A stretch of DNA of 64,000 nucleotides from a virus, in the IMG/VR virus record IMGVR_UViG_3300050821_005065, positions 8,158-72,157 of that record; one strand, 5' to 3'. Below, in pieces: positions 2 to 18,268 of this stretch (within the stretch, counting starts at the first letter, position 1; each line of letters begins with the position of its first letter). A model generated the notes under the pieces. The model saw only the letters and a list, made by a program, of their open reading frames with translations. It made no database searches and was not told where the DNA came from. The translations under genes and the position numbers were made by a program.

Positions 2-871
2 GCTGTTTTTCTCGGCATCCTCACCTCCTGCGAACCCATCCCGGTCTACGCTCAGTTCGTTGTGGCGCCCACCACCGCAGAGTGTGCGACCTCAATTGAT
101 GGATCTGTCGTGGGAACCATTAATCCTCTGTCCCCACCAATTCTGACCACGAGCTTCACCGGCAGCTTATCTGCGGGAAATTACTTCGTCGAAGAGGCTT
201 GGCTCGATTCGTTCGGACATACCACATTGGTCAGTCCGGAAACTCCAGTTCAACTCACCGGCACCGGAGAATTGATTGAGAATATCCCCTCAAGTGGGAT
301 TCCGGCCACGGTCGTCACACGAAAGATTTATATCGGCACAACTTCTGGGTCAGAGACTCTTCAGGGCTCCGCCTCTGGCTCTACTGCTTATACTCAAAGC
401 GTGCCGCTGGTCACGGGAGCGGCAGTTCCGACACTGAATAACACAGTTTGCCAGGTAGTCGCGAACGATGCCGGCTGGCCCACGGGAACCGGTTATCTTG
501 TCTCCCTTACTACTCCCTCGGGTGAAACGGCACCAGGGTATCCTTTGCAAGCCCAATTCCTAGGGCCGGGAAACAACATCAACTTAGGACAAGGTTTCCC
601 GCAGTACAACGGGACAGTGCTGTATCCGATTCCAATCATGGCGCGACCCTACAATCATGGGCCGCAAAGCATCTCGGGAAATCTAACCTTGGGGCCCTAC
701 GCTTTGTCGGCCAACACCATGACGCTTGGCACGAGCGTAACTAATCCCTCTGGAGGAACCAATGTTGTCTATCGCTGCGTTACCGCGGGGTCTACGCTGC
801 CCATTGGATCGTTAACGATCAACGCCGCGGCTTGTGGCAGCACACAGGATACAGGTTTACGAGTTCCGTAA
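2..871 (+). CDS. Exported beta-rich virion/fibre-like protein (5' truncated)
   Basis: Frame is open from base 2 (AVFLGILTSCEPIPVYAQFVVAPTT...), the tail of a signal peptide (YAQ cleavage site or LTSC lipobox). G/T/S-rich, with a GSLSAGNYFV..GHTT..SP module resembling those in the 22645 tail protein. Confidence 0.7.
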   Translation, partial: AVFLGILTSCEPIPVYAQFVVAPTTAECATSIDGSVVGTINPLSPPILTTSFTGSLSAGNYFVEEAWLDSFGHTTLVSPETPVQLTGTGELIENIPSSGIPATVVTRKIYIGTTSGSETLQGSASGSTAYTQSVPLVTGAAVPTLNNTVCQVVANDAGWPTGTGYLVSLTTPSGETAPGYPLQAQFLGPGNNINLGQGFPQYNGTVLYPIPIMARPYNHGPQSISGNLTLGPYALSANTMTLGTSVTNPSGGTNVVYRCVTAGSTLPIGSLTINAAACGSTQDTGLRVP

Positions 872-915
872 CTCCCCGCAATGCCCAGCATCAACCCTTT
901 AACCTTGGAGGAAGC

Positions 916-1338
916 ATGAAATACTCCGACTCAGTAACTTTAGTCCAACGCCAGTCCGATGGCTCAATCACGCGCACGAATGCGCTGGTGCTGGCCTCGG
1001 CAATCCAACCCAAAAACGCCAGCATCCACACAGGTCTCAAGAATCAGCATGGCCTGTTACCCGAAGGCGAGTATCTTGACCTCGCATTCTTAACCCCGAT
1101 GCCAGACGGGCAAGTGTTGAAGACCACGAGCGCGGAAAACTATACGCGACCGGCACATTTAGTCGCACCATGGAAGGACGGCGCGGTGATCGGATGGGAA
1201 CCGAAAGTCGCTCCACCTTCCCCGGACGCCGCGAAGCTTCGCAAGTTTCTGTTCGCGAATTTCAAGAGCGAAACCGGCAACGAAACTCCCGAAGACTGCG
1301 CCATCCGCCTGCTGTCCGCCACTCTCAAAAAGAAGTAG
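916..1338 (+). CDS. Hypothetical protein
   Basis: GGAGG RBS before ATG 916 (MKYSDSV...). Confidence 0.7.
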   Translation: MKYSDSVTLVQRQSDGSITRTNALVLASAIQPKNASIHTGLKNQHGLLPEGEYLDLAFLTPMPDGQVLKTTSAENYTRPAHLVAPWKDGAVIGWEPKVAPPSPDAAKLRKFLFANFKSETGNETPEDCAIRLLSATLKKK

Positions 1339-1343
1339 AACCT

Positions 1344-2372
1344 ATGTCGCGTATCCTCTTTATCGTTAAATTCAGGGAAGACTCTGCGGGGCGCTGTGCC
1401 TACGATGGAACACCAGCCTGTTATGGCGGACTCTATCACTCGGCGCTCTTTGTTGTGCAAATGCTGCGCGCGGCTCATGTCGATGCCAAACTCGTGCAGG
1501 TCTGCGACAACAATGACATCGACCGCGAAGTAGACCGCTACAAGCCCGACATCGTGATTATCGAAGGCTTGTGGGTCATTCCCGAGAAATTCCTGATCCT
1601 GGCGCAACTTCATCCTCGGGTGCGCTGGGTCGTAAGGATTCACAGCGAGATACCCTTCCTGGCCTATGAAGGAATTGCAATTCAATGGGTCGATGGATAT
1701 GTGCGGCAACTACAAGTCTATGTTGCGGCAAATTCGACTTACGCAACCCGCGATTTACAGGTTGTCGTGGGGTCGCGTTACGCCAGTAAGATTCTGTGCC
1801 TCCCGAACTTCTACCCGCTATTGAATCAGGTCGCCAAGCGGCAGAACGCTTTCCTGGATATCGGTTGCTTCGGCGCGCTGCGGCCGCTCAAAAACCAGTT
1901 ATTACAAGGGATAGCCGCAATTGAGTTTGCCGAGCGCGAAAAACGCTCCCTACGCTTCCACATCAATGAACGATGCGAGCAGATGGGCGATTCTGTACTG
2001 AAAAACCTGCGCGCATTGTTTGACGCTCCAGGCCGGGAACTCGTCGAACATAAATGGGAGACGCGGGAGCAATTCCTCGAGACTCTCAGTTGTACCGATA
2101 TCGGAATGCAAGTCTCGTTTTCTGAGACCTTCGACATCACGGCTGCCGACACCGTATCGCTCGGAATTCCCTTGGTGGCCTCGTCCGAAATCGTCTGGGC
2201 CTCGCCGCACGCGCAAGCCTCCGTCACCAATGTAGCCTCCATTGTGCAAAAGTTGCGTGACGTAACTTCCTCGGTCTTCGGTTGGTGGATTCGCAAAGAT
2301 AGCCTCAAGAGGCTTCGTACTTATTGCGATCACAGCCGCGCTACATGGCTTCACTTCGCAGAACAATTTTAG
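1344..2372 (+). CDS. Glycosyltransferase, GT-B/GT4-like
   Basis: KPDIVIIE, VRIHSE, IGCFGALRPLKNQ and SFSETFDITAADTVSLGIPLVAS (GT4 ExF...G.P.V-like motif); start placed at MSRILF. Confidence 0.8.
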   Translation: MSRILFIVKFREDSAGRCAYDGTPACYGGLYHSALFVVQMLRAAHVDAKLVQVCDNNDIDREVDRYKPDIVIIEGLWVIPEKFLILAQLHPRVRWVVRIHSEIPFLAYEGIAIQWVDGYVRQLQVYVAANSTYATRDLQVVVGSRYASKILCLPNFYPLLNQVAKRQNAFLDIGCFGALRPLKNQLLQGIAAIEFAEREKRSLRFHINERCEQMGDSVLKNLRALFDAPGRELVEHKWETREQFLETLSCTDIGMQVSFSETFDITAADTVSLGIPLVASSEIVWASPHAQASVTNVASIVQKLRDVTSSVFGWWIRKDSLKRLRTYCDHSRATWLHFAEQF

Positions 2373-2391
2373 TTTCCAAAGGAGAAACCAC

Positions 2392-3363
2392 ATGAAACGT
2401 ACTTTGACCTCAACTCTAATCGCCCTTGCGCTGGTTGTCGCTTGCATTTGTATTGCGGCCCCGGCGTTCGCCCAAAACTACCCGCCCACCTGGGTCTTCG
2501 CCCGCGATTACAATTACTCGCCGGTCATCGGCCAGCAAGCCAACACCTATACGTTCAATGGGGGAAGTTGCAACTATACTCCCACCGGGGGAAGCGTGAA
2601 CGGCTTGGCGAATCCCATCTTCGATTTCTCAGGGGTCATCGTTTCAACTCCGGTGTACTTTCCGGTGTTCATCAACGATGCGACTCCGACGAATTCCGAG
2701 ATTGTGACGCCCTCGGCAACGTCGAATACTCAGACAGTGTGCGGGTTCACGGCTTCGCCGGCGAACTCTCATACCACCTTCCAGCTTCAGTCGGGAACTG
2801 CCGGCTTGCAGGAAGCCGTCGCTTACCAGATCAACTCAGCGCCAAGCTCCGTGGTGATGCTCGATAAGTCTTGGTACACCTTGCTGACCGGGCTCGGTTC
2901 AACGCCTCCAAGTGCCGCGGCAGTCATCAACGCTTTGACCGGCAGCGCCAACGTGGAGATCGTCGATACCACCACGGCGCCGTGGGTGTCTTACTGCTGG
3001 AATGGGACGAACTACACCCCGTGTGCCAGCAATCAGACCGTGCCTGCAGTAGCGGCTGGTGCGGGCGCCGGAACCGGCCCAACTATTACCGTAGTTGGCA
3101 CTGGCGTATCCGGGATTGTGACTCTGACCACGGGCACCACGCCGACGGCCTCGGCTACCATTTTTACCTTGACCTGGCCCGCGATCGCATCGGGCGGCTT
3201 CCAGTATGCTCCGAGTTGCACCATCTCAACCATCGGGACGCGGGCTTATACCGGAACCAACGCGAGCGTAGCTGGACCTCCGGCAGTCGATACCTACACT
3301 GCGACTTCCACGGCTCTCACGGCTTCAGTGAGCGGCTATAAGTGGTCGTATACCTGCCGATAA
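2392..3363 (+). CDS. Exported T/S/G-rich fibre or decoration-like protein
   Basis: AGGAG RBS; Sec signal MKRTLTSTLIALALVVACICIAAPAFA|Q; 6 Cys in the mature chain; C-terminal VAAGAGAGTGPT..GIVTLTTGT fibre-like domain. Confidence 0.75.
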   Translation: MKRTLTSTLIALALVVACICIAAPAFAQNYPPTWVFARDYNYSPVIGQQANTYTFNGGSCNYTPTGGSVNGLANPIFDFSGVIVSTPVYFPVFINDATPTNSEIVTPSATSNTQTVCGFTASPANSHTTFQLQSGTAGLQEAVAYQINSAPSSVVMLDKSWYTLLTGLGSTPPSAAAVINALTGSANVEIVDTTTAPWVSYCWNGTNYTPCASNQTVPAVAAGAGAGTGPTITVVGTGVSGIVTLTTGTTPTASATIFTLTWPAIASGGFQYAPSCTISTIGTRAYTGTNASVAGPPAVDTYTATSTALTASVSGYKWSYTCR

Positions 3364-3402
3364 GCTGATCGTCGAATCTGGCGAAAGGAATAGGTCTTAG
3401 CC

Positions 3403-5379
3403 ATGCGAATGCGTCTCTGTGCGTTTCTCCTCCTTGGTGCCGTGTTCGCTGCTCCCTTATGGGGGCAGCGGGCCGGACCGCAAAACATTACCGCAGCATC
3501 AGGTGCAGGTTCGTGTGCTTCGGTTCAAATCTCTTCCGGCCAAGCCTCGACCGTTGGGATTCAGATCGTCGGAACTTGGTCAGCCACGCTTCAGCCCCAG
3601 GTTAAAATTGCCGCGCAAACCGCAGTCAACACCACGGTCACGCCGGCGGGCTCGTCATCCTCGCAAGGGACGATCACCGCGAATGGGATCTATACCGCAG
3701 TGGTTGCGGGCATGGATTTCTTTCAAGTCTGTGCGACGGCCTACACCTCGGGAACCGCCACTGTCTATTTCAATCTCTCGAATGGCGTAGCGATCAATCA
3801 GTTAGGCGGAGGAGCTTCCGGCGCGGTTGCGATCACAGTCAACGGGGGAGGAGTCTTAACCTCTCCTGTAAATTTGCAGAACGGCACGAACACCACCGCA
3901 TCAAATTCCGGATCGAACGTCCAATACAACGTTCCCACTGCTACAAGTTCTGTTCTGGGAGTCGTCGAGCCGGACGGAACAACCATCGCCAACACCGCGG
4001 GTGCCATTAAGGTGGCGATCCCGAACTGTATCAGCACAGTCGCCAATCTGGGATTGTGTCCATCCCTGCAAGCCGGGATTCAGGCTGAAGTGACCGACGG
4101 CGCTTCAGTCACGGACTGCACCGTCGGAGGAGGCTCAACCTTGGTCTCCTGCGCTTACAACGGCGCATCGTGGGCGGCAACTTTTCCCGGTGGGTTATCC
4201 GTCGCAGGCAGTCAGTTCGCGGTGCAAACCAACAACGGCTCAGGCGGCCTTGCAGGAATCAATTCTCCAACAACCAACGGTTACTACGGTTGCGGATTCA
4301 ATGTGACAGCAAGCGTAGCAGTTCTTTTTGGCTGCACGCTTCAGGGCGTAGCCATCGACACCAGCAATCCGGCAACTTTACTGTATAACGACCGCGCGGC
4401 CTATGTTGATTGGACTAGCGGCACGGGTTTGGCGCTCCCAGCAATCAGCGGCCAGTTCGGCTCCAACTTCCCCTTCGTTCTAGAAAATAACGCAGGCTCT
4501 ACTTTGACCATTACCCCGAATGCTGGAGCAAGCAATCTTATCGACGGCAGCGCCACGGGAACCTTGCTGCCGGGCTTCGCGGCCTTTGTCTATAGCGATG
4601 GAGTTACGAACTGGGATTCGATCAAGTTCCCGACCTTTGGAGCGTTCCCCGCCTGCACTAATATCCTTCAGTTCAGCACGACCACAGGATTCAACTGTCC
4701 AGCCGCGCCGCCGGTTAATTTGGGCGTGACCAACGTCAAGCCAGCCGCGGATAGCACCTCGACCTTTAGCGTCACCGGGCAAACGTCAGGTACGAACGAC
4801 TTTCAAGTTGATACGACAAACCATCGCACATGTATAGGTTGTGCTGGTGCGGCCCCAGCGGCCGGTTTGGATGTAGGTGGAGGAAAGTTTGAGGTCAACA
4901 ACACCACTGGAGCTTGCCCCGTAATTAACGGATTCACGACAGTAGCTCCTGGCTGCACTCCGTTGATGAGCAACACGGCCAGTGGAACCTTGAATAATAA
5001 TCTAGGTGCCACAACCTTAACGGCCTCGATCGCTGCGACTCACTGGTATGTCGCCGAGTTCGAAGTTGTGCAAGTGGCTGCCGGAACAAGCTGTGCAACC
5101 GCAACATCTTTTGTGGTCAACATCATCGTCCAAGATCCGAATGCAGGCGGGGCGAGCACGGTGCCATTGATTCCGATCGGCACGACCAGTTCGACGATCA
5201 GCATCAGCGCCAGCACAGGGAATGGCGCGGCAGGAGCGCAACTGGCACAGCTTCACTACGCTTGGGCGCAGAAGGCGAGTCAGACGCCGCAGTACAGCGT
5301 TACCGGATATTCGGCAGGAACGGCTTGTTCTCCGGCTCCAACGTTCGCAATCAATCCCATCGTGATGATGACCAAATGA
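3403..5379 (+). CDS. Exported tail-fibre-like protein
   Basis: Signal MRLCAFLLLGAVFAAPLWG|Q; tail-fibre-like repeat PTATSSVLGVVEPDGTTI; 16 Cys in the mature chain. Confidence 0.75.
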   Translation: MRMRLCAFLLLGAVFAAPLWGQRAGPQNITAASGAGSCASVQISSGQASTVGIQIVGTWSATLQPQVKIAAQTAVNTTVTPAGSSSSQGTITANGIYTAVVAGMDFFQVCATAYTSGTATVYFNLSNGVAINQLGGGASGAVAITVNGGGVLTSPVNLQNGTNTTASNSGSNVQYNVPTATSSVLGVVEPDGTTIANTAGAIKVAIPNCISTVANLGLCPSLQAGIQAEVTDGASVTDCTVGGGSTLVSCAYNGASWAATFPGGLSVAGSQFAVQTNNGSGGLAGINSPTTNGYYGCGFNVTASVAVLFGCTLQGVAIDTSNPATLLYNDRAAYVDWTSGTGLALPAISGQFGSNFPFVLENNAGSTLTITPNAGASNLIDGSATGTLLPGFAAFVYSDGVTNWDSIKFPTFGAFPACTNILQFSTTTGFNCPAAPPVNLGVTNVKPAADSTSTFSVTGQTSGTNDFQVDTTNHRTCIGCAGAAPAAGLDVGGGKFEVNNTTGACPVINGFTTVAPGCTPLMSNTASGTLNNNLGATTLTASIAATHWYVAEFEVVQVAAGTSCATATSFVVNIIVQDPNAGGASTVPLIPIGTTSSTISISASTGNGAAGAQLAQLHYAWAQKASQTPQYSVTGYSAGTACSPAPTFAINPIVMMTK

Positions 5380-8300
5380 AGCGCCTCCTTCTCATCTTCG
5401 CGCTGCTGTGCGGCTCGGCCTTCGGGACGACCTATTTCGCGCCCACTTCCGCCGGATCGAACAACGGTACGGACTGCGCGGACGCTTACGCGATTGGGGA
5501 CGTGGCGCACGGTATCAACGTCTCGGGAAATTGGACGGCGGGGAATACCATACACGTCTGTTCGGGAACATATACCGGATCGGCAGGATCGACGCTCATT
5601 ACAGCGGCGGGCAGCGGATCGAGCGGCAATCCGATCAATCTCTATCTCGATCCCGGAGCGGTTCTGACCGCTCCCTACTGGGCGGCAGGAAATGGGGCAA
5701 TCAACATCTCCGGCCAAAGTTGGATTACCGTGGATGGATGGGTGGGTCATTCCTGTGGTTTCGTTAATGCCGTAGATGTGACTTGCGGCGGAGCGATAAT
5801 TGAAAACTCCGCGAATGGCTCGAAGCTTGCCAACCAACAGAATTCCCGTGGAGTATTCGCCGATCCCTGCCAGAACTGCATCGTCCGTGGGATTAATTTT
5901 CAGAATCTCTACGTTCACACCCTGCCACAAGCGGTGACTTCAACCACCATCGTCGGCTCCGGGAACGGCGCTACGATTACGATCAACTGCACGGCATCCT
6001 GTCTCTTTCCGGTTGGAGCTGTCGTCAGCTTAATTCAGACCTCGAACGCGAGCATCAACTCGCACAATGGCTGCGGCCAGCCCATCACGATTACCAACGT
6101 CAGTCCTTCGACGCAGGTTACAGGTACGATCAACTCGACTTTCTGCGGTCTGACTCCGTCCGGCAGTTCCACGGGCGGAGCGGTAGCGGAAGTCGGTATC
6201 TCCAACTCTCAAGTAAACGCGGTTTACTTCTCCGGCCAGAACACACAGGTTTGCAATAACTGGATTTCCAATTCTGCTTGGGCCATAATTGCGCACGCCG
6301 AAACGAATGATACCGGGATTCAAATTTGCCATAATCATATTGACTCCAGCGACCACACCGTCGCCTACTCACCCAACAACGAGACCACGGCTTATACAGC
6401 CTATATCTACGGCAACCACTTCACGAACTTCATGAACTGGGATTCTGGTTGCGGGCCGGAGAATGGAGCCTGTTCAACGTGGGATACGGGATCGAATAAC
6501 TATCACCACGATGGTATCCACTTCTTCGATGGCGGAGTCAGCGTCTCCTACACGATGTTCATTTATAACAACGTGTGTGACGGAACTATTGGAGTGAACG
6601 CAACCGGCTGCTATTTCGCGGAAGGCACGACCTCCTCGAATCTGGCCTCAACAACTTACTATTTCAACAATGTAGCTGTGAGCCAGCCGACCAACACCAG
6701 CGGCCAAGGGCACACGATGTTCGTCGGCGGATGCCTCTCCGGTGGATCGACGCGGAATTGCTTCGTTTACAACAATACGGTGTTATCGGCGGCAAACGCC
6801 TCCGATGTAGCATACGACACCTCCGGCACGGACGCGCTGTTCAAGAATAACGCGGCACAATCCAGCGGCTCATACCTGCAATGGAATAACTGGACGATCA
6901 CAACGCCCTCGACCGACATCGACTACAACGCCTATGCCGATAATGGGCAGTGCGGCGGTAACGGTTGCTGGAATTGGGGCGCTCAAGGCATCGACGCCTC
7001 TAGCCTGGCAGCATGGAAGTCTGCGTGTGTCTGCGATAGCCACGGAGTATACGCGGCTTCACTCGGAATCAATTCCAGTACGTACGTTCCGACGAGTACA
7101 GGATCGTTAGTCTACCATGCCGGAGTCAATCTAACCTCGGTTTGCAGCGGCCAACCCAGTCCCGGTTTAGGCGATTTGTGCTCGGATGCGGCTGGAGTCG
7201 CAAGGCCGAACTCGGCATGGGATGTGGGAGCATTCCAGTTCGGAGTAACTGTCACGGTCGCCACTCCAACGCTCTCTCTGGCAGCGGGAAGTTATGCCAA
7301 CGCGCAAACGACTATCTGTGCAACGAGCACTCCGGGAGCATCCTGCGTCTACACGGCAGATGGCACCACACCAACGGTCTCCGGCACAACCTGCACTGTC
7401 ACAAACGGCAACCTTGCACCGAATAACTACGTGCTCCCGGTAAGTCAGTCAGTGACGATTGCAGTTATTGGTTGCCTCTCTGGAGATACGGCAAGTTCGA
7501 CCGTCTCGGCAGCCTATACCATCACCTATTCCTCGACGATAGCGGCCAGCAACTTCGGTTTACAATGTGGCTTCAGCAATGGAGCGTGCAAGAATCCCTC
7601 TCCTCCGCCGCTGGTCCTGTGGCCGACCTCAATTGCGACACCCTCAGTGGTTCGCATGTTGAGTTCCAACACCGATTGGGCAACGATGCAGCCGAACTCC
7701 AGCGGGATTGTTTACACCGACCTCGACGGCTACCTCGACGCACTGGCGGCGACGGCGCTTGTAAGCGGGAATCCAGCTGCAGCCGACGAGGTATTTATCT
7801 CGGTGCCATGCTATCTAGCAGCCGCTCCGACGCCATGCCCCACGGCCAGCCAGCCGGCGCACGGAACCAATAGTCCGCCCGCCGATCTGGTCGCTTCCGG
7901 ATCTCCATCGTTCAACGCCTTCGTGACAGCGTTCGTTAACCACTGCTCGGTTGCGGGAAATTGCGTCAAAAATCTCATCAAGTATTACGAAATGTGGAAC
8001 GAACCCAACCTGCCTTACTCATGGGCGGGGACGGAACTTCAGTTGGAGCAGATGATTGCTCCTGCGGCACAGATCATCGCGGCCAACGTTCCGAACGCCG
8101 TGATCATGACGCCCTCTTTTAGTTCAGGAGGAAGCGGTTACACCACCTACGCAAGCAACTGGCTAACGTTTGAAAACACGGTTGGACCTTTTTCGAGCAT
8201 CGTCTTGCTGCACGACTACCTTGGGACTTCCATCCCAGAATCCCGCGGCCCGCCTGGTGCCTTTGCCACAGCCGTCCACGGTGTCGCCGGCTGGTCGAAC

Positions 8301-8816
8301 GCGCTATTAGGTAACGACGAAACGAACTGGGCCGCCAGCAATAATTTCAAGTGCGTGGGTTATAGCACCGCCGACTGCATCGGGCAAATCGTGCGATGGC
8401 AACTCATTCAAGCGAGCAAGGGTTACGCAGCCATCTGGTGGTTCGTTTGGAATGGAACCATCGGCAACGGGCCCGTGGGCTACGCCAGCGCTTATTACTG
8501 GGCAGAGCAATATTTGATTGGCGGGCACTTCACCGGGGCGGCCAGTGGCACAGGGACGCCGCCAGTCTGGACGGCTCCGTTCGTCGAAGGCAATGGCAAG
8601 ACGGCGCTGTGGGTGTGGACGACGAGTGAAAGTGGAACGACCTATACGGTGCCGAGCAACTACACGGATTACCGCGACATTTCGGGCGGATCGACTCCGA
8701 TAACAGCGGGAAACAGTATCGCAATCAGCGTGCAGCCCATCATGTTGGAACAAGGTACAAGCGTACTGCCGCCAGCAACGGTGAATGCGGCGATCGCGCT
8801 GTTAGCACAAAACTAA
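5376..8816 (+). CDS. Exported depolymerase-like protein: parallel beta-helix + Fn3-associated domain + clan GH-A (GH39/GH5-like) domain
   Basis: Start ATG 5376 overlaps the upstream stop (ATGA); signal MKRLLLIFALLCGSAFG; Asn-rich beta-helix (HHDGIHF, IYNN, VYNNT) ending ARPNSAWDVGAFQF; VATPTLSLAAGSY..YTADGTTPT domain; YYEMWNEPN acid/base motif. Confidence 0.8.
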   Translation: MKRLLLIFALLCGSAFGTTYFAPTSAGSNNGTDCADAYAIGDVAHGINVSGNWTAGNTIHVCSGTYTGSAGSTLITAAGSGSSGNPINLYLDPGAVLTAPYWAAGNGAINISGQSWITVDGWVGHSCGFVNAVDVTCGGAIIENSANGSKLANQQNSRGVFADPCQNCIVRGINFQNLYVHTLPQAVTSTTIVGSGNGATITINCTASCLFPVGAVVSLIQTSNASINSHNGCGQPITITNVSPSTQVTGTINSTFCGLTPSGSSTGGAVAEVGISNSQVNAVYFSGQNTQVCNNWISNSAWAIIAHAETNDTGIQICHNHIDSSDHTVAYSPNNETTAYTAYIYGNHFTNFMNWDSGCGPENGACSTWDTGSNNYHHDGIHFFDGGVSVSYTMFIYNNVCDGTIGVNATGCYFAEGTTSSNLASTTYYFNNVAVSQPTNTSGQGHTMFVGGCLSGGSTRNCFVYNNTVLSAANASDVAYDTSGTDALFKNNAAQSSGSYLQWNNWTITTPSTDIDYNAYADNGQCGGNGCWNWGAQGIDASSLAAWKSACVCDSHGVYAASLGINSSTYVPTSTGSLVYHAGVNLTSVCSGQPSPGLGDLCSDAAGVARPNSAWDVGAFQFGVTVTVATPTLSLAAGSYANAQTTICATSTPGASCVYTADGTTPTVSGTTCTVTNGNLAPNNYVLPVSQSVTIAVIGCLSGDTASSTVSAAYTITYSSTIAASNFGLQCGFSNGACKNPSPPPLVLWPTSIATPSVVRMLSSNTDWATMQPNSSGIVYTDLDGYLDALAATALVSGNPAAADEVFISVPCYLAAAPTPCPTASQPAHGTNSPPADLVASGSPSFNAFVTAFVNHCSVAGNCVKNLIKYYEMWNEPNLPYSWAGTELQLEQMIAPAAQIIAANVPNAVIMTPSFSSGGSGYTTYASNWLTFENTVGPFSSIVLLHDYLGTSIPESRGPPGAFATAVHGVAGWSNALLGNDETNWAASNNFKCVGYSTADCIGQIVRWQLIQASKGYAAIWWFVWNGTIGNGPVGYASAYYWAEQYLIGGHFTGAASGTGTPPVWTAPFVEGNGKTALWVWTTSESGTTYTVPSNYTDYRDISGGSTPITAGNSIAISVQPIMLEQGTSVLPPATVNAAIALLAQN

Positions 8817-8839
8817 AAAGAGAAGAGAGGAATCACAAA

Positions 8840-9220
8840 ATGAAACGAATCCTGCTGGCAGTTCTGGTTCTCATGCTGGGGGTAGTCGCACAAGCCCAGG
8901 CATCATCGCCTTGCGGAGTTGTACCGACTCCGGGCGCTCCGCATGTGTGCTTTAGCTGGTCCGCGTCCCCGACGCAAGGCGTGGCCTATAACGTCTACCG
9001 GGCGACGACTTCCGGTGGAGAGAATTACGCGACTCCGCTCAACGCGGTGCCGCTGACCACGCTATACTTTTATGACACGACTGTGGTTGACGGAACAAAA
9101 TACTTCTACACGGTGACCGCCGAGACTGGAGGTGCGCAAAGCTTGCCTTCTCCAGAGGCAAGCTCAATAGTCCCAGTGCCTCCTTCTGCCCCGACATCCC
9201 CCGCAGCTATCATTGATTAA
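8840..9220 (+). CDS. Exported fibronectin type III-like protein
   Basis: Signal MKRILLAVLVLMLGVVAQA|Q; Fn3 pattern SW.AS..YNVYR..D.TV..G.KYFYTVTA..S.PS. Confidence 0.8.
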   Translation: MKRILLAVLVLMLGVVAQAQASSPCGVVPTPGAPHVCFSWSASPTQGVAYNVYRATTSGGENYATPLNAVPLTTLYFYDTTVVDGTKYFYTVTAETGGAQSLPSPEASSIVPVPPSAPTSPAAIID

Positions 9221-9265
9221 GTGTCAAACAACCTCGTATCCCAAAATGTAAAACAGGAGGAAACC

Positions 9266-9538
9266 ATGAACGCATTCTTGACCTATGTAAAGGCGAACTG
9301 GAAGACGAACTTGGCGGCAGTGGCCGCATTCGCTTATTCGGTGCCTCAGTTCGTCACCGCCATTACCGCATGGCAGGCCGGACAACAGCCAAACTGGCAC
9401 GCTGCGGTTATCAGCATCATTGTGGCTGCTGGACTTGCTGCTGCCAAGGACGGCACGAATCATTCCACGATGGCCCAAGTGAAAGCCTCGACTGCTGCTG
9501 TAGAGGAATCTAAGGCTACGGCGACGGGTACTCCCTAA
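9266..9538 (+). CDS. Holin-like small membrane protein
   Basis: AGGAGG RBS; NWKT N-terminus, two hydrophobic segments ending GLAAAKD; next to the lysis genes. Confidence 0.6.
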   Translation: MNAFLTYVKANWKTNLAAVAAFAYSVPQFVTAITAWQAGQQPNWHAAVISIIVAAGLAAAKDGTNHSTMAQVKASTAAVEESKATATGTP

Positions 9539-9546
9539 CCAATGAA

Positions 9547-9687
9547 ATGCAGCCGAAAGAACTAACGATCCTCGCGAGGAAGATTCGCGAACTGGAGCGG
9601 AACATCGAGATCAATCCGAAAGGCGGTCTCGTGCTCGCAATGAAAGCTAGAATCGCGCAGTTGAAGAAGCAGTTGGAGGGAAAATGA
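9547..9687 (+). CDS. Small hypothetical protein (46 aa, MQPKELTILARKIRELE...)
   Basis: Read manually; fills the gap and overlaps the next start via ATGA. Confidence 0.55.
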   Translation: MQPKELTILARKIRELERNIEINPKGGLVLAMKARIAQLKKQLEGK

Positions 9688-10493
9688 ACACGCTATTCGA
9701 CATTCTCAAGAAGCCTGTCCTGTTCCACTTGGTTCTCTACCAAGGCAAGAATGGTATCGCAACTTCTCCTACGGCCTACCTGTCGAACGATCCCGACGTA
9801 ATTGGTGACCAGCTTTCCGCGATGCAGAATCTTGGTGGTCCCGGCTGCGGCGTCATCGGCCTAACCTACGGGCCAACCGTCAGTTCTTTCATCAACTCCG
9901 CTGCGGAAGAAGTGTGCGCCCAATGCGCCGAGAGAGAGATGCCGTTTGCGCTCTGTTACGATCCTTGGGTTGTGAAGAATCCCGATGGCTCGATGCCGAC
10001 CGTTGCTATCGCTACCCAGAAGATGATTGCCGCGCTGGAAAATCCAATCACGCAGGCCATGATGGACTCGAAGACCTACATCTCCAGCATTAATGGGATC
10101 AGCGGCAAATTGGTGCTCGACTTCGGAACCACCGCGACACCATCGGCGGTGACTGCTGCCATGAAGGGAACGACCTACTGGCAGAACAGCGTAGATTACG
10201 CTTGGCCGCTCATTGCCGACAATAACGGACCCGCGCCTGTCAACAACACGACTGCGAAGTTGCCGTGCGTTTGCCGCGCTTTTAATGACGGCACTGGCCC
10301 AAATCGCAATGTGTCAATCTGGACTCCGACCAAGCCCGCGCGGATCATTCCGGCGAACGCTGGAAGTTATTTTTGGTCGCTGGCGAACGCGATGAATCCT
10401 GCCGCCGAGTACGCGCAGGTAGTCACTTGGAATGATGTTCTGGAGGGAACTGACATCGAGTCGTTCGCCGCAATACTGTACGGCAAGATTTAA
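9684..10493 (+). CDS. Glycoside hydrolase, GH99/GH71-like
   Basis: Y.SNDP.VI..Q...M at the N-terminus, FALCYD, and C-terminal QVVTWNDVLEGTDIE resembling the GH99/GH71 catalytic motif. Confidence 0.65.
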   Translation: MNTLFDILKKPVLFHLVLYQGKNGIATSPTAYLSNDPDVIGDQLSAMQNLGGPGCGVIGLTYGPTVSSFINSAAEEVCAQCAEREMPFALCYDPWVVKNPDGSMPTVAIATQKMIAALENPITQAMMDSKTYISSINGISGKLVLDFGTTATPSAVTAAMKGTTYWQNSVDYAWPLIADNNGPAPVNNTTAKLPCVCRAFNDGTGPNRNVSIWTPTKPARIIPANAGSYFWSLANAMNPAAEYAQVVTWNDVLEGTDIESFAAILYGKI

Positions 10494-10766: not shown

Positions 10767-11128
10767 TGGTGGCCTCTCAAGAAACGGTTACACTCACGGT
10801 CGAGCACTTTGTAGACCGGGAGATCGGCCATCTCAAAGAGAAGATGGAGTTGCGATTTGATTCACAAGCAGAAGCATTAGCGCTTGCGATGGTACGGCTG
10901 AACGAGCGTCTTGCCGAGATGAATGAGCTTCGCGGCCAGATCGCTACGGAACGAGGTTCGTACCTCACGAGAGAGGCTTACGAGCGAGAGCACAAGATCG
11001 TGAGCGACCGGGCAGGAGCGCTGGAGCTTCAAGCCAGCAAATGGTCGGGAAGCATCTGGATGTTGGGTGGGGTTATCAGCTTGGTCGTGGTAGGGATTAA
11101 TATTCTGCTGAGAATGTGGCCGAAATGA
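10766..11128 (+). CDS. Coiled-coil protein with C-terminal TM helix (holin/antiholin-like)
   Basis: Coiled coil followed by IWMLGGVISLVVVGINILL; directly upstream of the endolysin. Confidence 0.6.
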   Translation: MVASQETVTLTVEHFVDREIGHLKEKMELRFDSQAEALALAMVRLNERLAEMNELRGQIATERGSYLTREAYEREHKIVSDRAGALELQASKWSGSIWMLGGVISLVVVGINILLRMWPK

Positions 11129-11544
11129 CCTCTACCCCGGCTTACCAACTGCGCCACTTTACTGAGTTCGAACTTGCCTGTAGACATTGCGGTCGGCAGG
11201 GATGCACTGAAGAATTAAAACAAGCCTTGGACGACTACCGCGATGTTGTGAAACTCCCCGTGATCGTGAACGACGCTTATCGCTGCGAGGAGCACAATGC
11301 GGCGGTCAGTTTGGTCTCAAAGTCTCAGCACCCGGAAGGCACTGCCGCCGATATTCGAGTACCTGGCTTGACTCTCCAAGAAATGTACGACGCCGCACTG
11401 AAGATTCCTGCTTTCAAATATGGCGGGATCGGCGTGTACGACAAAAACTTTATCCACGTTGACGTACGGCACACGGGCCTGGCGCGCTGGGCGTTTGTGG
11501 GCAACAAAGAGATGAGCATCGCAGAATCAGGATTGGTGAAATGA
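11125..11544 (+). CDS. Endolysin, peptidase M15A family
   Basis: AYRC..HN..V, SQH..G.AADI, GGIGVY..FIHVDVR zinc-peptidase motifs. Confidence 0.88.
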   Translation: MTSTPAYQLRHFTEFELACRHCGRQGCTEELKQALDDYRDVVKLPVIVNDAYRCEEHNAAVSLVSKSQHPEGTAADIRVPGLTLQEMYDAALKIPAFKYGGIGVYDKNFIHVDVRHTGLARWAFVGNKEMSIAESGLVK

Positions 11545-15153: not shown

Positions 15154-16827
15154 ATGCCAGAACCCGTAGCTCCCGCTGCACCCGCACCTTCTGCCCCAGC
15201 CGCAGTTTCGGCTCCGGTAGCGCCCGTAGTATCTTCACCTGCGGCACCCGAAAGTTCTCCTGCTGCTCCTGCGCCTCCGAGTGCCGCGGCACCAAGCGCA
15301 CCCGCTGCTCCGTCCGCTCCGGCGAAGTTTGACGCGCAGACTTCTACCGCTCCCCCAGACTCCAAATCCTATCCCGATACTCAAGATGGGATGGAGCAAT
15401 TCATCATAGACAATACAGCTTGGGAGTTCGCGCACCCGGAAGAAGCCGACAGGCTCCGGCAGGCCGCGCACAAGCCCGAGACGCAAGAGAACTTCCTTGG
15501 AGAACCGGAAGCCGTTGTCGAACCCGAGGCAAAGGTTGAACCCGAGAAGCCTGCCGAAGAACCAAAGCCCACTGAGACCATCGCTGCGCCAGCAACCCCC
15601 GCTGTAATCGAAGAGTGGACAACAAAAAGTCCAGAACTGAAAGCGGCCTTTGAGAAAAATCCAGAACTGCAATCTCAGATCATGGAGATGGCAAGAGCGA
15701 ACGAAGCGGCCAAGCCCGTGCTGGACATCGTTTCCACGAAGGAAGAAGCAGAATTCGCGGTCGAGCACGCGCAACGGTTGGTCAGTGTGCAAGCCAACTG
15801 GATGCTCGCAGCCAACGATCCCGACATGATCCCCGCAGCCTACGAGCAAACCGTAGACTTCTTCAAAGAGCGGGATGCGAACGGAGCGGAGATCAAAGGG
15901 CCAGACGGCCAGCCAAAAATGGGAGCGGATTTCCCTATCTTCCAACGGTCAGTCGCTACACCGCTGTTTGAGAATTTCAAAGCCGGAGCGGACGCGAAAC
16001 TTGCTGCCTTGAAAGCCGCCCCGGTTCCCGATGAGGAAGCGATTCAGCAAGCGGAGTACGACGTCGCAGGACTGGCCTTCGCCATTGACATGATCAAGCG
16101 CGGTGGCGCGGAGCCAGCCATTCCGTCATTGCCGGCCGATGCGACCCCAGCGCAGATCGAAGCCCAGAAGAGGCTTGAGAAACTCTCCGCAGAAGTAGAC
16201 GAAAAGAACGGCAAGCAAAACGCGGCCACGCGCAAAGCCGCGAACCAAGCAGTGACCAAGAGAGTGCAAACGGCCTACGAGCAGGGCGTCGTCTCTTACA
16301 TCCAAACCAAAGTTGCGGAGATGAAGGAGCGCGGCGAATATCTCCCCGAATTCGTACTGCAAGACAAGTGGTTCAATCCGGCCACACAAAAGCTCACAAA
16401 CCTCTCCGCGTTCGATGTGAAGATCTATCAAACGCTCAACGACAAAATCAACAAGAACCCCGTTCACCATGCGAAGCTTCTGAGCCTTGAAGTCATGGGC
16501 GCTGCCGGAGAAGAGGCCCGACTCGCCGAAGTGAAACGGTTGCAAGGTCTCTATCTGCCAAAAATCTTCGACGCGGAAGTCAAGCGCATTCAGGACGGCA
16601 TCCGCGCGACCTCCAAGGCCCAACCGCCCGCAACCGTGGCTGGAAAAGTGGCTCGTGTCGAACCGCAATCCCAAGGCACCGTCGTCCCTCAAGCCATGAA
16701 CGATCAGCAAATGCGAACCTGGGCCGAAGGAGAAGCCAAGAAAGCGGATGGCTATGCTGGAATGCCGACTCGCGATCGTGAAGAGCTCGTGATGCAAATC
16801 ATGATGAAAAAGAAGTACGGAGCCTAA
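15154..16827 (+). CDS. Capsid scaffolding protein
   Basis: Between portal and capsid; A/P/E-rich disordered N-terminus followed by helical segments. Confidence 0.65.
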   Translation: MPEPVAPAAPAPSAPAAVSAPVAPVVSSPAAPESSPAAPAPPSAAAPSAPAAPSAPAKFDAQTSTAPPDSKSYPDTQDGMEQFIIDNTAWEFAHPEEADRLRQAAHKPETQENFLGEPEAVVEPEAKVEPEKPAEEPKPTETIAAPATPAVIEEWTTKSPELKAAFEKNPELQSQIMEMARANEAAKPVLDIVSTKEEAEFAVEHAQRLVSVQANWMLAANDPDMIPAAYEQTVDFFKERDANGAEIKGPDGQPKMGADFPIFQRSVATPLFENFKAGADAKLAALKAAPVPDEEAIQQAEYDVAGLAFAIDMIKRGGAEPAIPSLPADATPAQIEAQKRLEKLSAEVDEKNGKQNAATRKAANQAVTKRVQTAYEQGVVSYIQTKVAEMKERGEYLPEFVLQDKWFNPATQKLTNLSAFDVKIYQTLNDKINKNPVHHAKLLSLEVMGAAGEEARLAEVKRLQGLYLPKIFDAEVKRIQDGIRATSKAQPPATVAGKVARVEPQSQGTVVPQAMNDQQMRTWAEGEAKKADGYAGMPTRDREELVMQIMMKKKYGA

Positions 16828-16975: not shown

Positions 16976-18268
16976 ATGCCCGCACCCAATTACACAACTG
17001 CTCAAAGCCAGTTGCCGCTCATGCTGCAGATCGTTGCAGACACGGTGGCGAAGTCCCAGAATCTTGATCGAGGCATTGACAAGCGCTTTCAGGCAGTCAG
17101 CTCGAAAGATATGGGTAAAGAGAAGTATCGTCATCCCATTCAGTTTGACGAAGGCGGCCAGGGATCAGCCTACAACCCCGATGGTGGCGGCTACCCTCAA
17201 GGCACCGGGCCGGAATACCAGCAGTTCATCGTGACCCCAATTCCGATCCTCGTTGCTTTCGCCGCAACCGAATTGCTCGAGCGCATCGAAAAATCGCAAG
17301 GTCTCGAAATTGTCCAGCCCATCTCCCGCATGGTTGGTGGCGCCAAGGACAAAATGGCCCACATCCGCAACACCTTGACCCAAAGCTATAACCAGTTCAT
17401 CGTGGGCACCGTAGATGCTTCTTATGCCGGCGGAAATACCGTACAGATGGCCTCCAGCCCCTTCGGAAACCGTCTGCTCGATTTGAATAACCAGTATCTT
17501 GTGACCGACGCCTCCGGCCAGTACAACGTGCTCGGAAGCCCCGCAGTGCTGGCAAAGTCAAACTCCACCGGCGCCACTGTCGATACCGTACAGCTGGACG
17601 CCGCCCCTGCCGGACTCGTGGCCGGTTCTTCCTTCCTGTTGATGGGTGCGACCTCTGGCGCTCCCCTCGGCCCGCAAGGTCTGCAGTACATGATCTCAAC
17701 CTCGAACGCTGGCGATATGGACGGAATCTCGCGCAACCTGGCTCAAATGCAGGCTGCGGGAGTGAACGCTTCCAACTCCACGCTCACCCTGGGCATGATT
17801 CTCGCCCTCGATGTGCGGCAGCGCCAGAATGCAGGCCCGGATGCGGAAGGGGGACCACGGTTCTACTACACCTACATCTCCCAGCAATCGACCGCACGTC
17901 AGCTTGGATTCGCCAAAACCACGCTGATGAGCCAAGACGGCAAGCTCGACAACTTCAACATGTCGCCCGATCTGAAAGGCAAGTGGATGATCGGCACCGA
18001 CGAAGTGGAAGTCGATACCACCGCGGCCAACAACACGATGTACTGGGTCAGCGCGAATCACCTGAAGCGCGTTCGCTATCCCGGATCGCAAAAGTTTATT
18101 CCGGGCACGCTGAACGGGCTGTGGTGGCCACGTTACTCGGGGGGACAGCCGACCTCAGAACGCGACCTTTATTATCAGGACGCATACAATTACTATACTA
18201 ATTTTCCCTGGTCACATGGTCTGATTCACTCGCTCGGGGTAACTCCTGCTATGTCAGCGCCGGTTTAG
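16976..18268 (+). CDS. Major capsid protein
   Basis: 430 aa after the scaffold; strong RBS, own promoter and downstream terminator; composition typical of a capsid protein. Confidence 0.8.
   Translation: MPAPNYTTAQSQLPLMLQIVADTVAKSQNLDRGIDKRFQAVSSKDMGKEKYRHPIQFDEGGQGSAYNPDGGGYPQGTGPEYQQFIVTPIPILVAFAATELLERIEKSQGLEIVQPISRMVGGAKDKMAHIRNTLTQSYNQFIVGTVDASYAGGNTVQMASSPFGNRLLDLNNQYLVTDASGQYNVLGSPAVLAKSNSTGATVDTVQLDAAPAGLVAGSSFLLMGATSGAPLGPQGLQYMISTSNAGDMDGISRNLAQMQAAGVNASNSTLTLGMILALDVRQRQNAGPDAEGGPRFYYTYISQQSTARQLGFAKTTLMSQDGKLDNFNMSPDLKGKWMIGTDEVEVDTTAANNTMYWVSANHLKRVRYPGSQKFIPGTLNGLWWPRYSGGQPTSERDLYYQDAYNYYTNFPWSHGLIHSLGVTPAMSAPV

What the first reader, a model, noticed from the sequence alone, without database searches (positions are those of the whole stretch)
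2..9220. Cluster of five exported, apparently disulfide-bonded fibre/depolymerase-like phage proteins
Seen: ORFs 2-871, 2392, 3403, 5376 and 8840 all begin with signal peptides (the first is truncated). By hand count their mature chains hold 4, 6, 16, 36 and 2 Cys. All counts are even and the Cys mostly fall in neighbouring pairs, whereas the major capsid protein has none. Their content looks like virion appendages: a tail-fibre-like repeat (PTATSSVLGVVEPDGTTI), a beta-helix plus GH domain, and Fn3. They lie directly upstream of the lysis cassette. Established: tailed phages assemble in the reducing cytoplasm and their fibres normally lack signal peptides. Inference: this phage may export its receptor-binding/decoration parts through Sec for oxidative folding in the periplasm and attach them to particles at or after lysis, a two-compartment assembly route. 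Alternatively they decorate the infected cell surface.
Basis: partly seen in the sequence, partly recalled or inferred. Interest (0 to 1): 0.85.

Follow-up and report, generated by a model that had tools for sequence, protein, structure and literature searches.

The report
Signal-peptide-bearing phage fibre/depolymerase gene cluster
A soil phage of Acidobacteriota, like many of its relatives including a cultured one, puts secretion signals and paired cysteines on all of its fibre- and enzyme-like proteins, so its host-recognition parts probably fold outside the cytoplasm, where tailed phages are normally built.

Summary
The window is part of a complete 72,157-bp phage genome with a 97-bp terminal repeat. 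It has six adjacent genes, not five; the sixth lies just upstream of the window. All six start with Sec/signal-peptidase-I-type signal peptides, five with Gln at +1. Their mature chains hold 34, 4, 6, 16, 36 and 2 Cys, all even numbers. The putative capsid and ejection proteins have none. The signals are conserved in homologues: 141 of 144 for the N-terminal module of the 658-aa protein and 116 of 119 for the 323-aa protein. The same pattern occurs in 39+11 uncultured phage loci, an Acidobacteriota prophage and the cultured podophage Tunturi 1.

In P22-like relatives these genes fill the tailspike slot, right after the ejection-protein genes. The 1146-aa protein ends in a GH39/PslG-like glycosidase fold. 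The N-terminal module of the 658-aa protein has the XepA-C/YomS fold (Z 14.5); XepA is reported to be exported and absent from PBSX particles.

Export and disulfide bonding are well supported. Attachment to virions at lysis is plausible (about 0.45) but untested. The main rival is exported, non-virion enzymes. Novelty: new variant of a known kind. Interest 0.78.

The parts
2..871 (+). C-terminal 289 aa of a roughly 300-aa exported protein. The gene starts about 40-50 nt upstream of the window. Signal peptide cut VYA|Q; 4 Cys in the mature chain. Its N-terminal ~250 aa recur at the N-terminus of longer signal-peptide proteins in L058 and L051.
916..1338 (+). 140-aa protein without a signal peptide and with no family hit. 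A homologue sits at the same position in the related 70-kb contig (L058).
1344..2372 (+). 342-aa protein without a signal peptide. Only a weak, sub-threshold GT4 glycosyltransferase hit (E 0.018). Conserved in L058.
2392..3363 (+). 323-aa exported protein, cut AFA|Q, 6 mature Cys. Member of a large conserved family. The N-terminal ~220 aa also occur fused to other C-termini.
3403..5379 (+). 658-aa exported modular fibre-like protein, cut LWG|Q, 16 mature Cys. It has an N-terminal XepA-C/YomS-fold beta-sandwich (residues ~21-130) with a conserved Cys pair, and a mobile module (residues ~290-440) shared with many signal-peptide phage proteins.
5376..8816 (+). 1146-aa exported protein, cut AFG|T, 36 mature Cys. 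It has a strand-rich N-terminal half, a CHB_HEX_C_1 domain (residues 636-708) and a C-terminal GH39/PslG/GH30-like TIM-barrel plus beta-sandwich glycosidase fold. The start codon overlaps the stop codon of the preceding gene.
8840..9220 (+). 126-aa exported small protein, cut AQA|Q, 2 Cys. A homologue with a signal peptide sits in the same position before the lysis genes in L010.
9221..9538 (+). 105-aa small protein with two hydrophobic stretches (read by eye). Holin-like by position; no family hit above threshold.
11116..11544 (+). Endolysin: Peptidase_M15_3 (E 1.3e-15) and phrog_894 (E 1.1e-28). It has no signal peptide.

Best explanation
The cluster has six genes: five in window 2-9220 and a 1318-aa gene just upstream. 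I propose that it encodes the phage's receptor-binding and polysaccharide-degrading appendages, and that they are made as Sec substrates.

Proposed steps:
1. The signal peptide is cut by signal peptidase I, mostly before a Gln.
2. The proteins fold in the oxidising periplasm, where their paired cysteines form disulfides.
3. Heads, tail hub and Cys-free ejection proteins assemble in the cytoplasm as usual.
4. The two sets meet only when the holin and endolysin encoded directly downstream break the envelope.
5. The appendages then dock on otherwise finished particles, as P22 tailspikes can do in vitro (recalled).
6. Before lysis, the glycosidase-bearing members may already trim the infected cell's own exopolysaccharide.

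Shown: export-type N-termini, their conservation, the even-Cys bias, the glycosidase-like fold, and the gene position. Inferred: cleavage, disulfides, periplasmic retention, and above all attachment to virions.
For: Signals and cysteines
- Six adjacent genes carry signal-peptide-like N-termini. No other ORF over 300 aa in the genome does.
- Gln is at +1 in five of six.
- Mature Cys counts are all even.
- Across 36 signal-peptide proteins of >=200 aa in this genome and 11 related loci, 28 of 34 with any Cys have an even number. Among non-signal proteins the figure is 20 of 50. Cys content is 2.49% against 1.17%.

Conservation of the signals
- 15 of 18 homologues of the 658-aa protein, by eye.
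- 141 of 144 library representatives of its N-terminal module. In a 72-sequence alignment, the +1 Gln and two Cys are >=90% conserved.
- 139 of 144 have exactly two Cys in that module. The two members that truly lack a signal also lack the Cys pair.
- 116 of 119 homologues of the 323-aa protein, of which 109 of 116 have even Cys counts.

Phage-borne, not cellular
- The module was not found in 301 genomes of the host class. A viral record served as positive control and was found.

Receptor-binding-like architecture
- Conserved N-terminal modules carry variable C-termini.
- C-terminal Pfam hits, one member each of 72, are Peptidase_S74, a pectate-lyase-like fold, K1-lyase_C, Laminin_G_3 and GDSL.

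Gene position
- In 39 viral loci holding the module, 28 hold the families that define the order: adaptor-like, hub (phrog_578, E 2e-82), ejection protein (phrog_598, E 1e-18), then Cys-free proteins. The signal-peptide proteins follow at the end of this run, which is the tailspike slot.
- The cultured podophage Tunturi 1 has the same run: gp12, gp13, gp14 (annotated 'tail spike protein'), gp16 and gp17 (annotated 'virion structural protein'), placed before its endolysin.
- The siphovirus Tunturi 4, whose tail tip must assemble early, shows no such signals on its tail proteins.

Host capacity
- Host-like genomes encode DsbA-like proteins, VKOR and a glutaminyl cyclase.
- Gln is the commonest +1 residue in a 408-kb host sample, 14 of 61.
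Against: - No datum here shows any of these proteins in a virion. The Tunturi paper contains no mention of mass spectrometry (term search), and its 'tail spike' labels are annotation.
- The best structural match of the conserved N-terminal module is XepA C-domain/YomS (Z 14.5 and 14.0; next best 8.6). XepA is reported exported yet absent from mature PBSX particles (PMC6834076, passages).
- The C-terminal glycosidase fold resembles PslG, which I recall as a periplasmic exopolysaccharide hydrolase. Homologous domains occur in a bacterial lipoprotein on a 163-kb contig.
- In the window's own phage the cluster is not next to the ejection proteins. It lies upstream of the lysis genes and the portal gene.
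- The six proteins share no detectable N-terminal similarity, so each would need its own docking site.
- The 1164-aa and 426-aa proteins of the structural module are unidentified and could be the real fibres.
- My signal-peptide calls come from a home-made heuristic.
- Both AF2 models are mostly low confidence.
Confidence: 0.45

Rival explanations
1. The proteins are exported but never become part of the virion. They act on the infected cell's envelope and matrix. Possible roles are degrading exopolysaccharide or other surface glycans from the periplasm so that progeny can escape and not re-adsorb to debris, masking or destroying receptors (superinfection exclusion), or assisting lysis as proposed for XepA.
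For: - The N-terminal module has the XepA-C/YomS fold. XepA is a late, exported, non-virion protein of a lysis cassette (PMC6834076, passages).
- The cluster abuts the lysis cassette here, in L010 and in Tunturi 1.
- The glycosidase fold is GH39/PslG-like. Its homologues occur in cellular exported proteins.
- The topological barrier between periplasm and cytoplasm needs no explaining under this model.
- P. gingivalis phages carry Q-rule signal-peptide genes that their authors read as host-surface modifiers (PMC10367356, passages).
Against: - The model would leave the P22-like relatives without any recognisable tailspike or fibre in the slot where one is expected.
- The cluster takes about 13 kb, 18% of the genome. 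That is much for accessory functions.
- A conserved N-terminus with a shuffled C-terminus, and S74 or K1-lyase-type modules, are typical of virion receptor-binding proteins.
- The N-terminal module was not found in 301 host-class genomes.
Confidence: 0.35
2. The hydrophobic N-termini are not working export signals in vivo. The proteins stay in the cytoplasm and join the tail there. The N-terminal helix serves another purpose, such as a transient membrane tether or an assembly or cleavage tag. Disulfides form only after release.
For: - It is the textbook location of tailed-phage assembly.
- My predictor is heuristic.
- In the pD model the N-terminal segment is simply predicted as a helix.
Against: - The N-termini have a canonical n-h-c layout with small residues at -1 and -3, and a >=90% conserved Gln at +1.
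- The host sample shows the same habit, and the host has a glutaminyl cyclase.
- The even-Cys bias is confined to the signal-bearing proteins.
- The signal-less variants of the module lack the Cys pair.
- Virion core proteins are Cys-free.
Confidence: 0.1
3. They are lysogenic-conversion surface proteins: fibre-like adhesins or enzymes displayed by lysogens for the cell's benefit. This would be analogous to the signal-peptide-bearing fibre proteins of Bdellovibrio (recalled) or to WceF.
For: - One relative is a prophage in a 934-kb Acidobacteriota contig.
- Cellular exported tailspike-like enzymes exist (WceF, PMC7949094, search listing and abstract only).
Against: - The genes lie in the late operon, co-oriented with the lysis and structural genes.
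- This genome and many relatives look like complete lytic-type genomes with terminal repeats.
- The module was not found in 301 host-class genomes.
Confidence: 0.07

Closest known systems
XepA (PBSX) and YomS (SPbeta) prophage lytic-cassette proteins of Bacillus subtilis
   Same: The first ~110 mature residues of the 658-aa protein adopt the same beta-sandwich fold (VIA Z 14.5, rmsd 2.1 over 106 residues; Z 14.0 for YomS). Both are phage late genes next to the holin and endolysin. XepA is reported to be exported beyond the cytoplasmic membrane (PMC6834076, passages).
   Different: Identity is only 8-10%, and no sequence-level family link was found. Here the module is the N-terminal head of long mosaic proteins, follows a classical cleavable signal peptide, and carries a conserved Cys pair. 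The host is diderm. Oligomer state was not tested. XepA is said to be absent from particles; here that is unknown.
P22-type tailspikes and other podophage receptor-binding depolymerases
   Same: Same gene slot after the ejection proteins in the P22-like relatives. Conserved N-terminal part with shuffled C-terminal modules. Depolymerase-type domains. Addition as a last, self-sufficient assembly step is known for P22 (recalled).
   Different: Known tailspikes have no signal peptide and fold in the cytoplasm. No sequence or fold match to a solved tailspike was obtained here.
PslG / GH39 / GH30 clan-A glycoside hydrolases
   Same: The C-terminal ~350 aa of the 1146-aa protein match a TIM barrel plus beta-sandwich: Foldseek E 9.6e-08 to GH39 5jvk, and 2-3e-06 to PslG with TMt 0.46. 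The motif ...MWNEPN is seen in the sequence. PslG acts on exopolysaccharide in the cell envelope (recalled).
   Different: No Pfam GH family reaches threshold. phmmer to PDB GH39 gives only E 0.34. The model has mean pLDDT 57. Here the domain is fused behind ~700 aa of strand-rich sequence and a CHB_HEX_C domain, in a phage.
Sec-exported phage proteins with the Bacteroidetes 'Q-rule' (P. gingivalis phages); signal-peptide endolysins
   Same: These are phage genes whose signal-peptide cleavage exposes Gln, matching the host's habit (PMC10367356, passages; PMC5837995, abstract and one term search).
   Different: Those are small genes of unknown function, or lysins. Here the signals sit on all the large fibre- and depolymerase-like proteins. 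Acidobacteria are not mentioned in the Q-rule paper.
Cellular exported tailspike- or fibre-like proteins (Pantoea WceF; Bdellovibrio fibre proteins, recalled)
   Same: A signal peptide combined with a phage-appendage-like architecture.
   Different: Those are chromosomal genes serving the cell. Here the genes are in phage late operons, and the module was not found in 301 host-class genomes.

Membership tests
Sec / signal peptidase I substrates | N-terminal positively charged n-region, 9-15-residue uncharged hydrophobic h-region, small residues at -3 and -1 | tested here: met
   My heuristic scores 3.8-5.2 for all six genes. AF2 models residues 4-16 of the 658-aa protein as a helix ahead of the folded domain. 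SignalP itself was not available.
Sec / signal peptidase I substrates | Signal conserved in homologues | tested here: met
   141 of 144. 116 of 119. 15 of 18 by eye. Homologues of the 1146-aa and 126-aa proteins also begin with such N-termini.
Sec / signal peptidase I substrates | Actual translocation and cleavage | not testable with these tools
   Needs N-terminal mass spectrometry or reporter fusions.
Disulfide-bonded extracytoplasmic proteins | Bias to even Cys numbers in exported but not in cytoplasmic proteins (criterion recalled from work on bacterial disulfide-forming capacity) | tested here: met
   28 of 34 against 20 of 50. 109 of 116 in the 323-aa family. A conserved Cys pair in 139 of 144 N-terminal modules. 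The disulfides themselves were not observed.
Phage tail fibre / tailspike (virion receptor-binding protein) | Physical presence on the virion and a role in adsorption | not testable with these tools
   No proteomics is held. The Tunturi 1 labels 'tail spike protein' and 'virion structural protein' are annotation.
Phage tail fibre / tailspike (virion receptor-binding protein) | Gene in the late structural operon at the receptor-binding-protein slot | tested here: met
   Met in the P22-like relatives and in G305/Tunturi 1. In the window's phage the cluster lies between early/middle genes and the lysis genes plus portal gene.
Phage tail fibre / tailspike (virion receptor-binding protein) | Conserved N-terminal anchor with mosaic C-terminal modules | tested here: met
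Phage tail fibre / tailspike (virion receptor-binding protein) | Trimeric fibre or beta-helix fold | tested here: inconclusive
   The monomer AF2 models are below pLDDT 50 over most of the shafts. No oligomer prediction was run.
XepA/YomS | The beta-sandwich fold of XepA C-domain/YomS | tested here: met
   Z 14.5 and 14.0, well above the next row at 8.6. The module's pLDDT is 91-98.
XepA/YomS | Sequence-level family membership | tested here: not met
   No PDB sequence hit at E<=1. No Pfam hit at E<=5. 8-10% identity in the structural alignment.
XepA/YomS | Pentameric disc | not tested
   No oligomer prediction was run.
GH39/GH30-like clan GH-A glycoside hydrolase | (beta/alpha)8 barrel plus C-terminal beta-sandwich | tested here: met
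   Foldseek E 9.6e-08 to 3e-04 to GH39, PslG and GH30 entries, on a model whose C-terminal part has pLDDT ~60-87.
GH39/GH30-like clan GH-A glycoside hydrolase | Profile-level membership of a named GH family | tested here: not met
   Pfam gave only CHB_HEX_C_1. phmmer to PDB GH39 gave E 0.34.
Fibronectin type III (ORF 8840-9220) | Match to an Fn3 profile | tested here: not met
   No Pfam family at E<=5. Only phrog_33719, of unknown function, at 2.4e-05.

The most novel reading that the evidence does not exclude
Podophages of Acidobacteriota, this one included, build infectious particles in two compartments. Capsid, tail hub and ejection proteins assemble in the cytoplasm. All receptor-binding and depolymerase appendages are Sec-exported, N-terminally processed before Gln and disulfide-bonded in the periplasm. 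The two sets join only at lysis. That would be a tailed-phage assembly route without precedent, tied to a host phylum and to tail types whose fibres attach last.
Probability: 0.45. Interest if true: 0.9.

Novelty: new variant of a known kind. Interest (0 to 1): 0.78.

Why it matters
Tailed-phage assembly is taken to be wholly cytoplasmic. Absence of signal peptides has even been used as an argument that a variable protein is of phage rather than bacterial origin (PMC6199706, passage).

Here a whole guild of soil phages puts conserved, host-adapted signal peptides and paired cysteines on every fibre- or depolymerase-like protein. The N-terminal module alone has 605 library cluster representatives.

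If these proteins are virion parts, the last assembly step happens across a membrane and only at lysis. If they are not, these phages spend up to a fifth of their genome on secreted enzymes. Their real receptor-binding proteins would then be unknown.

Either answer bears on:
- how phage receptor-binding proteins are annotated;
- host-range prediction for soil viromes;
- the count of phage-encoded carbohydrate-active enzymes in soil carbon cycling.

The question is directly testable, because the cultured Tunturi 1 and its host show the same feature.

Tried and rejected
Searches that gave nothing useful
- PHROGs and Pfam on the six proteins and on most structural proteins gave almost nothing.
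- Sequence searches of PDB gave nothing useful for the 658-aa, 1318-aa, 1164-aa, 426-aa and 263-aa proteins.
- A single-protein scan of viral contigs with the 658-aa protein found nothing. The alignment-based scans did.
- tblastn of the 658-aa protein against 50,697 cultured or deposited phage records found no match.
- BLASTP among the six cluster proteins found no shared N-terminal domain.
- HMMs of the conserved P22-like structural families did not hit the window's genome or G305. The window's phage is therefore a separate lineage, and the synteny argument is borrowed from relatives that share modules only.
- The listing of cluster members gave no names.

Readings considered and dropped
- ORF 2-871 as a lipoprotein, because of an L-T-S-C box. 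The Cys is not conserved, and homologues are cut before the same Q.

Literature
- Five searches for prior reports of signal peptides on tailed-phage fibres or tailspikes found none. Supplements could not be read. Subscription journals are not covered.
- A sixth search found the Tunturi paper. It does not contain 'signal peptide', 'tail fib' or 'mass spectrometry' (term search).

Not run
- Complex prediction. I judged a pass too weakly discriminating for the docking question.
- The run and read tools.
- SignalP is not on hand.

Limits of the models
- Both AF2 models are low confidence outside the N-terminal module (pD) and the C-terminal glycosidase part (pE). I make no claim about the shafts.
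- Disulfide geometry could not be inspected, because no coordinates are returned.

Full report
**What the window is.** The window is bases 8158-72157 of a single 72,157-bp virus record. The two ends of the record repeat 97 bp, so it is a complete phage genome. It has no tRNA gene and about 55% G+C.

The large terminase (38467-40095, phrog_979, E 1.7e-29) is only distantly related to those of HMO-2011-, CRP- and phiM6-type phages, which I recall as podophages; all 187 matching records are below 60% identity. A 263-aa protein (21412-22203) weakly resembles the SU10 podophage adaptor (E 3.5e-4, below cut-off). Most structural proteins have no family hit.

Related sequences place the host in the Acidobacteriota. 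They occur in a Terracidiphilus MAG contig and as a prophage-like stretch in a 934-kb Acidobacteriota contig. A third hit lies in a MAG labelled Eisenbacteria.

**The observation.** The genome supplies the missing start of the first one. It also reveals a sixth member just upstream of the window: 1318 aa, genome 4146-8102.

A von Heijne-style heuristic of my own flags all six. Among 89 called ORFs, 12 score >=3.3, and every flagged ORF over 300 aa is in this cluster. The likely cuts are:

| Protein | Cut |
|---|---|
| 1318 aa | ARC\|Q (or ASA\|A) |
| ~300 aa (ORF 2-871) | VYA\|Q |
| 323 aa | AFA\|Q |
| 658 aa | LWG\|Q |
| 1146 aa | AFG\|T |
| 126 aa | AQA\|Q |

Mature Cys counts are 34 (or 35), 4, 6, 16, 36 and 2. 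Cys lie closer together than random placement in the three largest proteins but not in the two ~300-aa ones.

By contrast, four proteins have no Cys at all: the putative capsid protein, a 557-aa protein, a 481-aa protein and a 2277-aa protein of the structural module.

Two genes without signals (916-1338 and 1344-2372) sit inside the cluster. They are conserved at the same place in a 70-kb relative, L058.

The lysis genes follow directly: a small protein with two hydrophobic stretches (read by eye) at 9221-9538 and a Peptidase_M15_3 endolysin at 11116-11544.

**Is it more than chance?** I pooled this genome with the 11 loci found through the 658-aa protein.
- 36 signal-bearing proteins of >=200 aa hold 2.49% Cys. 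73 others hold 1.17%.
- 28 of 34 signal-bearing proteins with any Cys have an even number. Among the others, 20 of 50 do.

Several of the odd counts come from my crude choice of cut site.

**Conservation of the signals.** It does not refute.
- *658-aa protein.* 15 of 18 database homologues start with such a signal, by eye. The other three are truncated or come from short contigs.
- *Its first 135 residues.* They find 605 cluster representatives at E<=1e-3, and 251 at <=1e-10, in a 1.84-billion-protein library. In the listed rows the match sits, with very few exceptions, at the very N-terminus.
  - 141 of the 144 newly listed ones have a signal-like start.
  - In an alignment of 72, the Gln at +1 and two Cys are at least 90% conserved.
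  - 139 of 144 have exactly two Cys in the module. The two members that genuinely lack a signal also lack that pair.
- *323-aa protein.* It has at least 167 homologues. Of the 119 examined, 116 have the signal, 117 have an [AGS]Q junction, and 109 of 116 have even Cys counts.
- *1146-aa and 126-aa proteins.* Their homologues also begin with signals or, in one bacterial case, a lipoprotein box.

**What the proteins are.**
- *1146-aa protein.* It has a CHB_HEX_C_1 domain. In a moderate-to-low-confidence model (mean pLDDT 57) its C-terminal part is a TIM barrel plus beta-sandwich. This part matches GH39, PslG and GH30 structures (Foldseek E 9.6e-08 to about 1e-04). The sequence-level link to GH39 is only E 0.34. 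The same C-terminal domain is fused to quite different N-terminal parts in other proteins, among them a bacterial lipoprotein.
- *658-aa protein.* It is a mosaic. An N-terminal beta-sandwich (residues 21-130, pLDDT 91-98) is followed by poorly modelled sequence. That sequence contains a ~150-aa module shared at 50-65% identity with signal-bearing proteins of 370-2100 aa.
  - The N-terminal module matches XepA C-domain (Z 14.5) and YomS (Z 14.0), far above the next entry at 8.6.
  - It also matches many uncharacterised Caudovirales proteins in BFVD.
- *Family members of that module.* Among 72 members, single proteins carry Peptidase_S74, pectate-lyase-like, K1-lyase_C, Laminin_G_3, NHL or GDSL domains. 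I recall several of these as typical of phage receptor-binding proteins.
- *Other cluster proteins.* The ~300-aa and 323-aa proteins, and large parts of the 1318-aa protein, recur in other phages. The first two do so as conserved N-terminal parts with other C-termini.

**Where such genes sit in other phages.**
- *The 39 module loci.* An alignment-based scan found 39 viral loci with the N-terminal module, mostly on 34-45-kb contigs. My heuristic flags the module-bearing ORF in 27 of 39; most misses are ORFs called with an over-long start.
  - Twenty-eight loci hold the families that define this order: an adaptor-like protein, a hub (phrog_578 'head closure Hc3', E 2.1e-82), an ejection protein (phrog_598, E 1.1e-18), two more Cys-free proteins, then a conserved ~500-aa signal-bearing protein (families F3/F8, 27 loci), then the module-bearing protein and usually more signal-bearing proteins.
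  - That is the P22-type layout with the tailspike slot filled by exported proteins.
- *G305.* This complete 62-kb genome with terminal repeats is related to Tunturi 1. It has its signal-bearing genes inside the late operon, between Cys-poor structural genes.
- *Tunturi 1.* This cultured podophage of Tunturiibacter has gp12, gp13, gp14 ('tail spike protein'), gp16 and gp17 ('virion structural protein') with such signals and 10-32 Cys each. They lie just before its endolysin. The paper describing it contains neither 'signal peptide' nor 'mass spectrometry' (term search only).
- *Tunturi 4.* This siphovirus shows no such signals on its tape-measure, tail-tip or other tail proteins. That is one genome only.
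- *Host-class genomes.* The N-terminal module was not found in 301 genomes of the host class. The same search found it in a viral record.

**Host side.**
- Two host-like MAGs encode DsbA-like thioredoxin-fold proteins and VKOR. One has a glutaminyl cyclase.
- In 408 kb of that genome, Gln is the commonest residue after my predicted cuts, 14 of 61.
- The 'Q-rule' has been described for Bacteroidetes, and Acidobacteria are not mentioned in that paper (PMC5837995, abstract and one term search).
- Q-rule signal-peptide genes have been noted in P. gingivalis phages and read as host-surface modifiers (PMC10367356, passages).

**How it most likely works.** Export and oxidative folding are well supported, though not demonstrated. 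For the fate of the proteins I weigh two readings.
- *For virion appendages that dock at lysis.* The tailspike slot, the lack of any other fibre candidate in the P22-like stretches held, the conserved-N/variable-C mosaic, the typical distal domains, the size of the investment (about 13 kb, 18% of this genome), and the restriction to podophages. P22 tailspikes attach last and can do so in vitro (recalled).
- *For exported, non-virion proteins.* The XepA/YomS fold; XepA is reported as exported and absent from PBSX particles (PMC6834076, passages). Also the PslG-like enzyme, the position against the lysis cassette, the membrane barrier, and the unidentified 1164-aa and 426-aa structural proteins of this phage.

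The two are not exclusive, because an exported tailspike could act on the cell's own polysaccharide before lysis.

**Novelty.** Five literature searches found no report of signal peptides on fibres or tailspikes of tailed phages. One paper uses their absence as a mark of phage origin (PMC6199706, passage). These searches cover open-access text only, and no supplements.

I file the finding as a new variant of a known kind: phage receptor-binding and depolymerase proteins, here with Sec export and disulfides. If attachment at lysis is shown, the assembly route itself would be new.

**Verdict.** Interest is 0.78.

Noticed in passing
L001:691-2430 (genome coordinates, upstream of the window): The phage encodes a GroEL-like chaperonin (Cpn60_TCP1, E 4.8e-46, 579 aa) a few genes before the exported-protein cluster.
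   Followed up: no
window 30441-37274 (+), 28995-30440 (+), 15154-16827 (+), 16976-18268 (+): Four large proteins of the structural module, one of them 2277 aa, contain no cysteine at all. The same Cys-free run of ejection-type proteins precedes the signal-bearing genes in the related loci. The 2277-aa protein matches the C-terminal third of phrog_21 (E 1.2e-69) and weakly a phosphoheptose-isomerase family.
   Followed up: partly
window 46338-47006 (-); L006:18422-19150: Very Cys-rich small proteins without signals: 222 aa with 19 Cys (8.6%) in the window, and 242 aa with 37 Cys (15%) next to the exported cluster of L006.
   Followed up: no
window 43908-44264 (-), 47363-48085 (-), 43249-43911 (-): Small early-strand ORFs with lipoprotein-box or signal-like N-termini (…LLAGMIGC…, …LTLSGC…). 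They are possible superinfection-exclusion or surface proteins.
   Followed up: no
G001 (Acidobacteriota MAG), L014-L034, L013: In a 408-kb sample, Gln is the commonest residue after predicted signal-peptide cuts (14 of 61). The genome also has a Glu_cyclase_2 gene (E 1.7e-99). A 'Q-rule' like that of Bacteroidetes may therefore hold in Acidobacteriota.
   Followed up: partly
P0063, P0126 (library proteins): Two members of the XepA-like N-terminal module family lack a signal peptide, and both also lack the otherwise near-universal Cys pair. This hints that the export signal and the disulfide were gained or lost together.
   Followed up: partly
L082 (Tunturi 4, PP885687): The cultured Acidobacteriota siphovirus shows no signal peptides on its tail-tip and tail proteins, unlike the podophage Tunturi 1. 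The trait may depend on tail type.
   Followed up: partly
L058 (70-kb viral contig) and L051: L058 shares the whole cluster order with the window: a 1318-aa homologue, a homologue of ORF 2-871, homologues of the 140-aa and 342-aa proteins, a 323-aa homologue, the module protein and small genes, followed by an 854-aa ORF of about the portal's size (not compared). It is the closest relative seen.
   Followed up: partly
window 9684-10493 (+): A 269-aa protein with 6 Cys and no signal sits inside the lysis region. It has no family hit, only a sub-threshold UDP-sugar dehydrogenase C-domain match at E 0.022.
   Followed up: no
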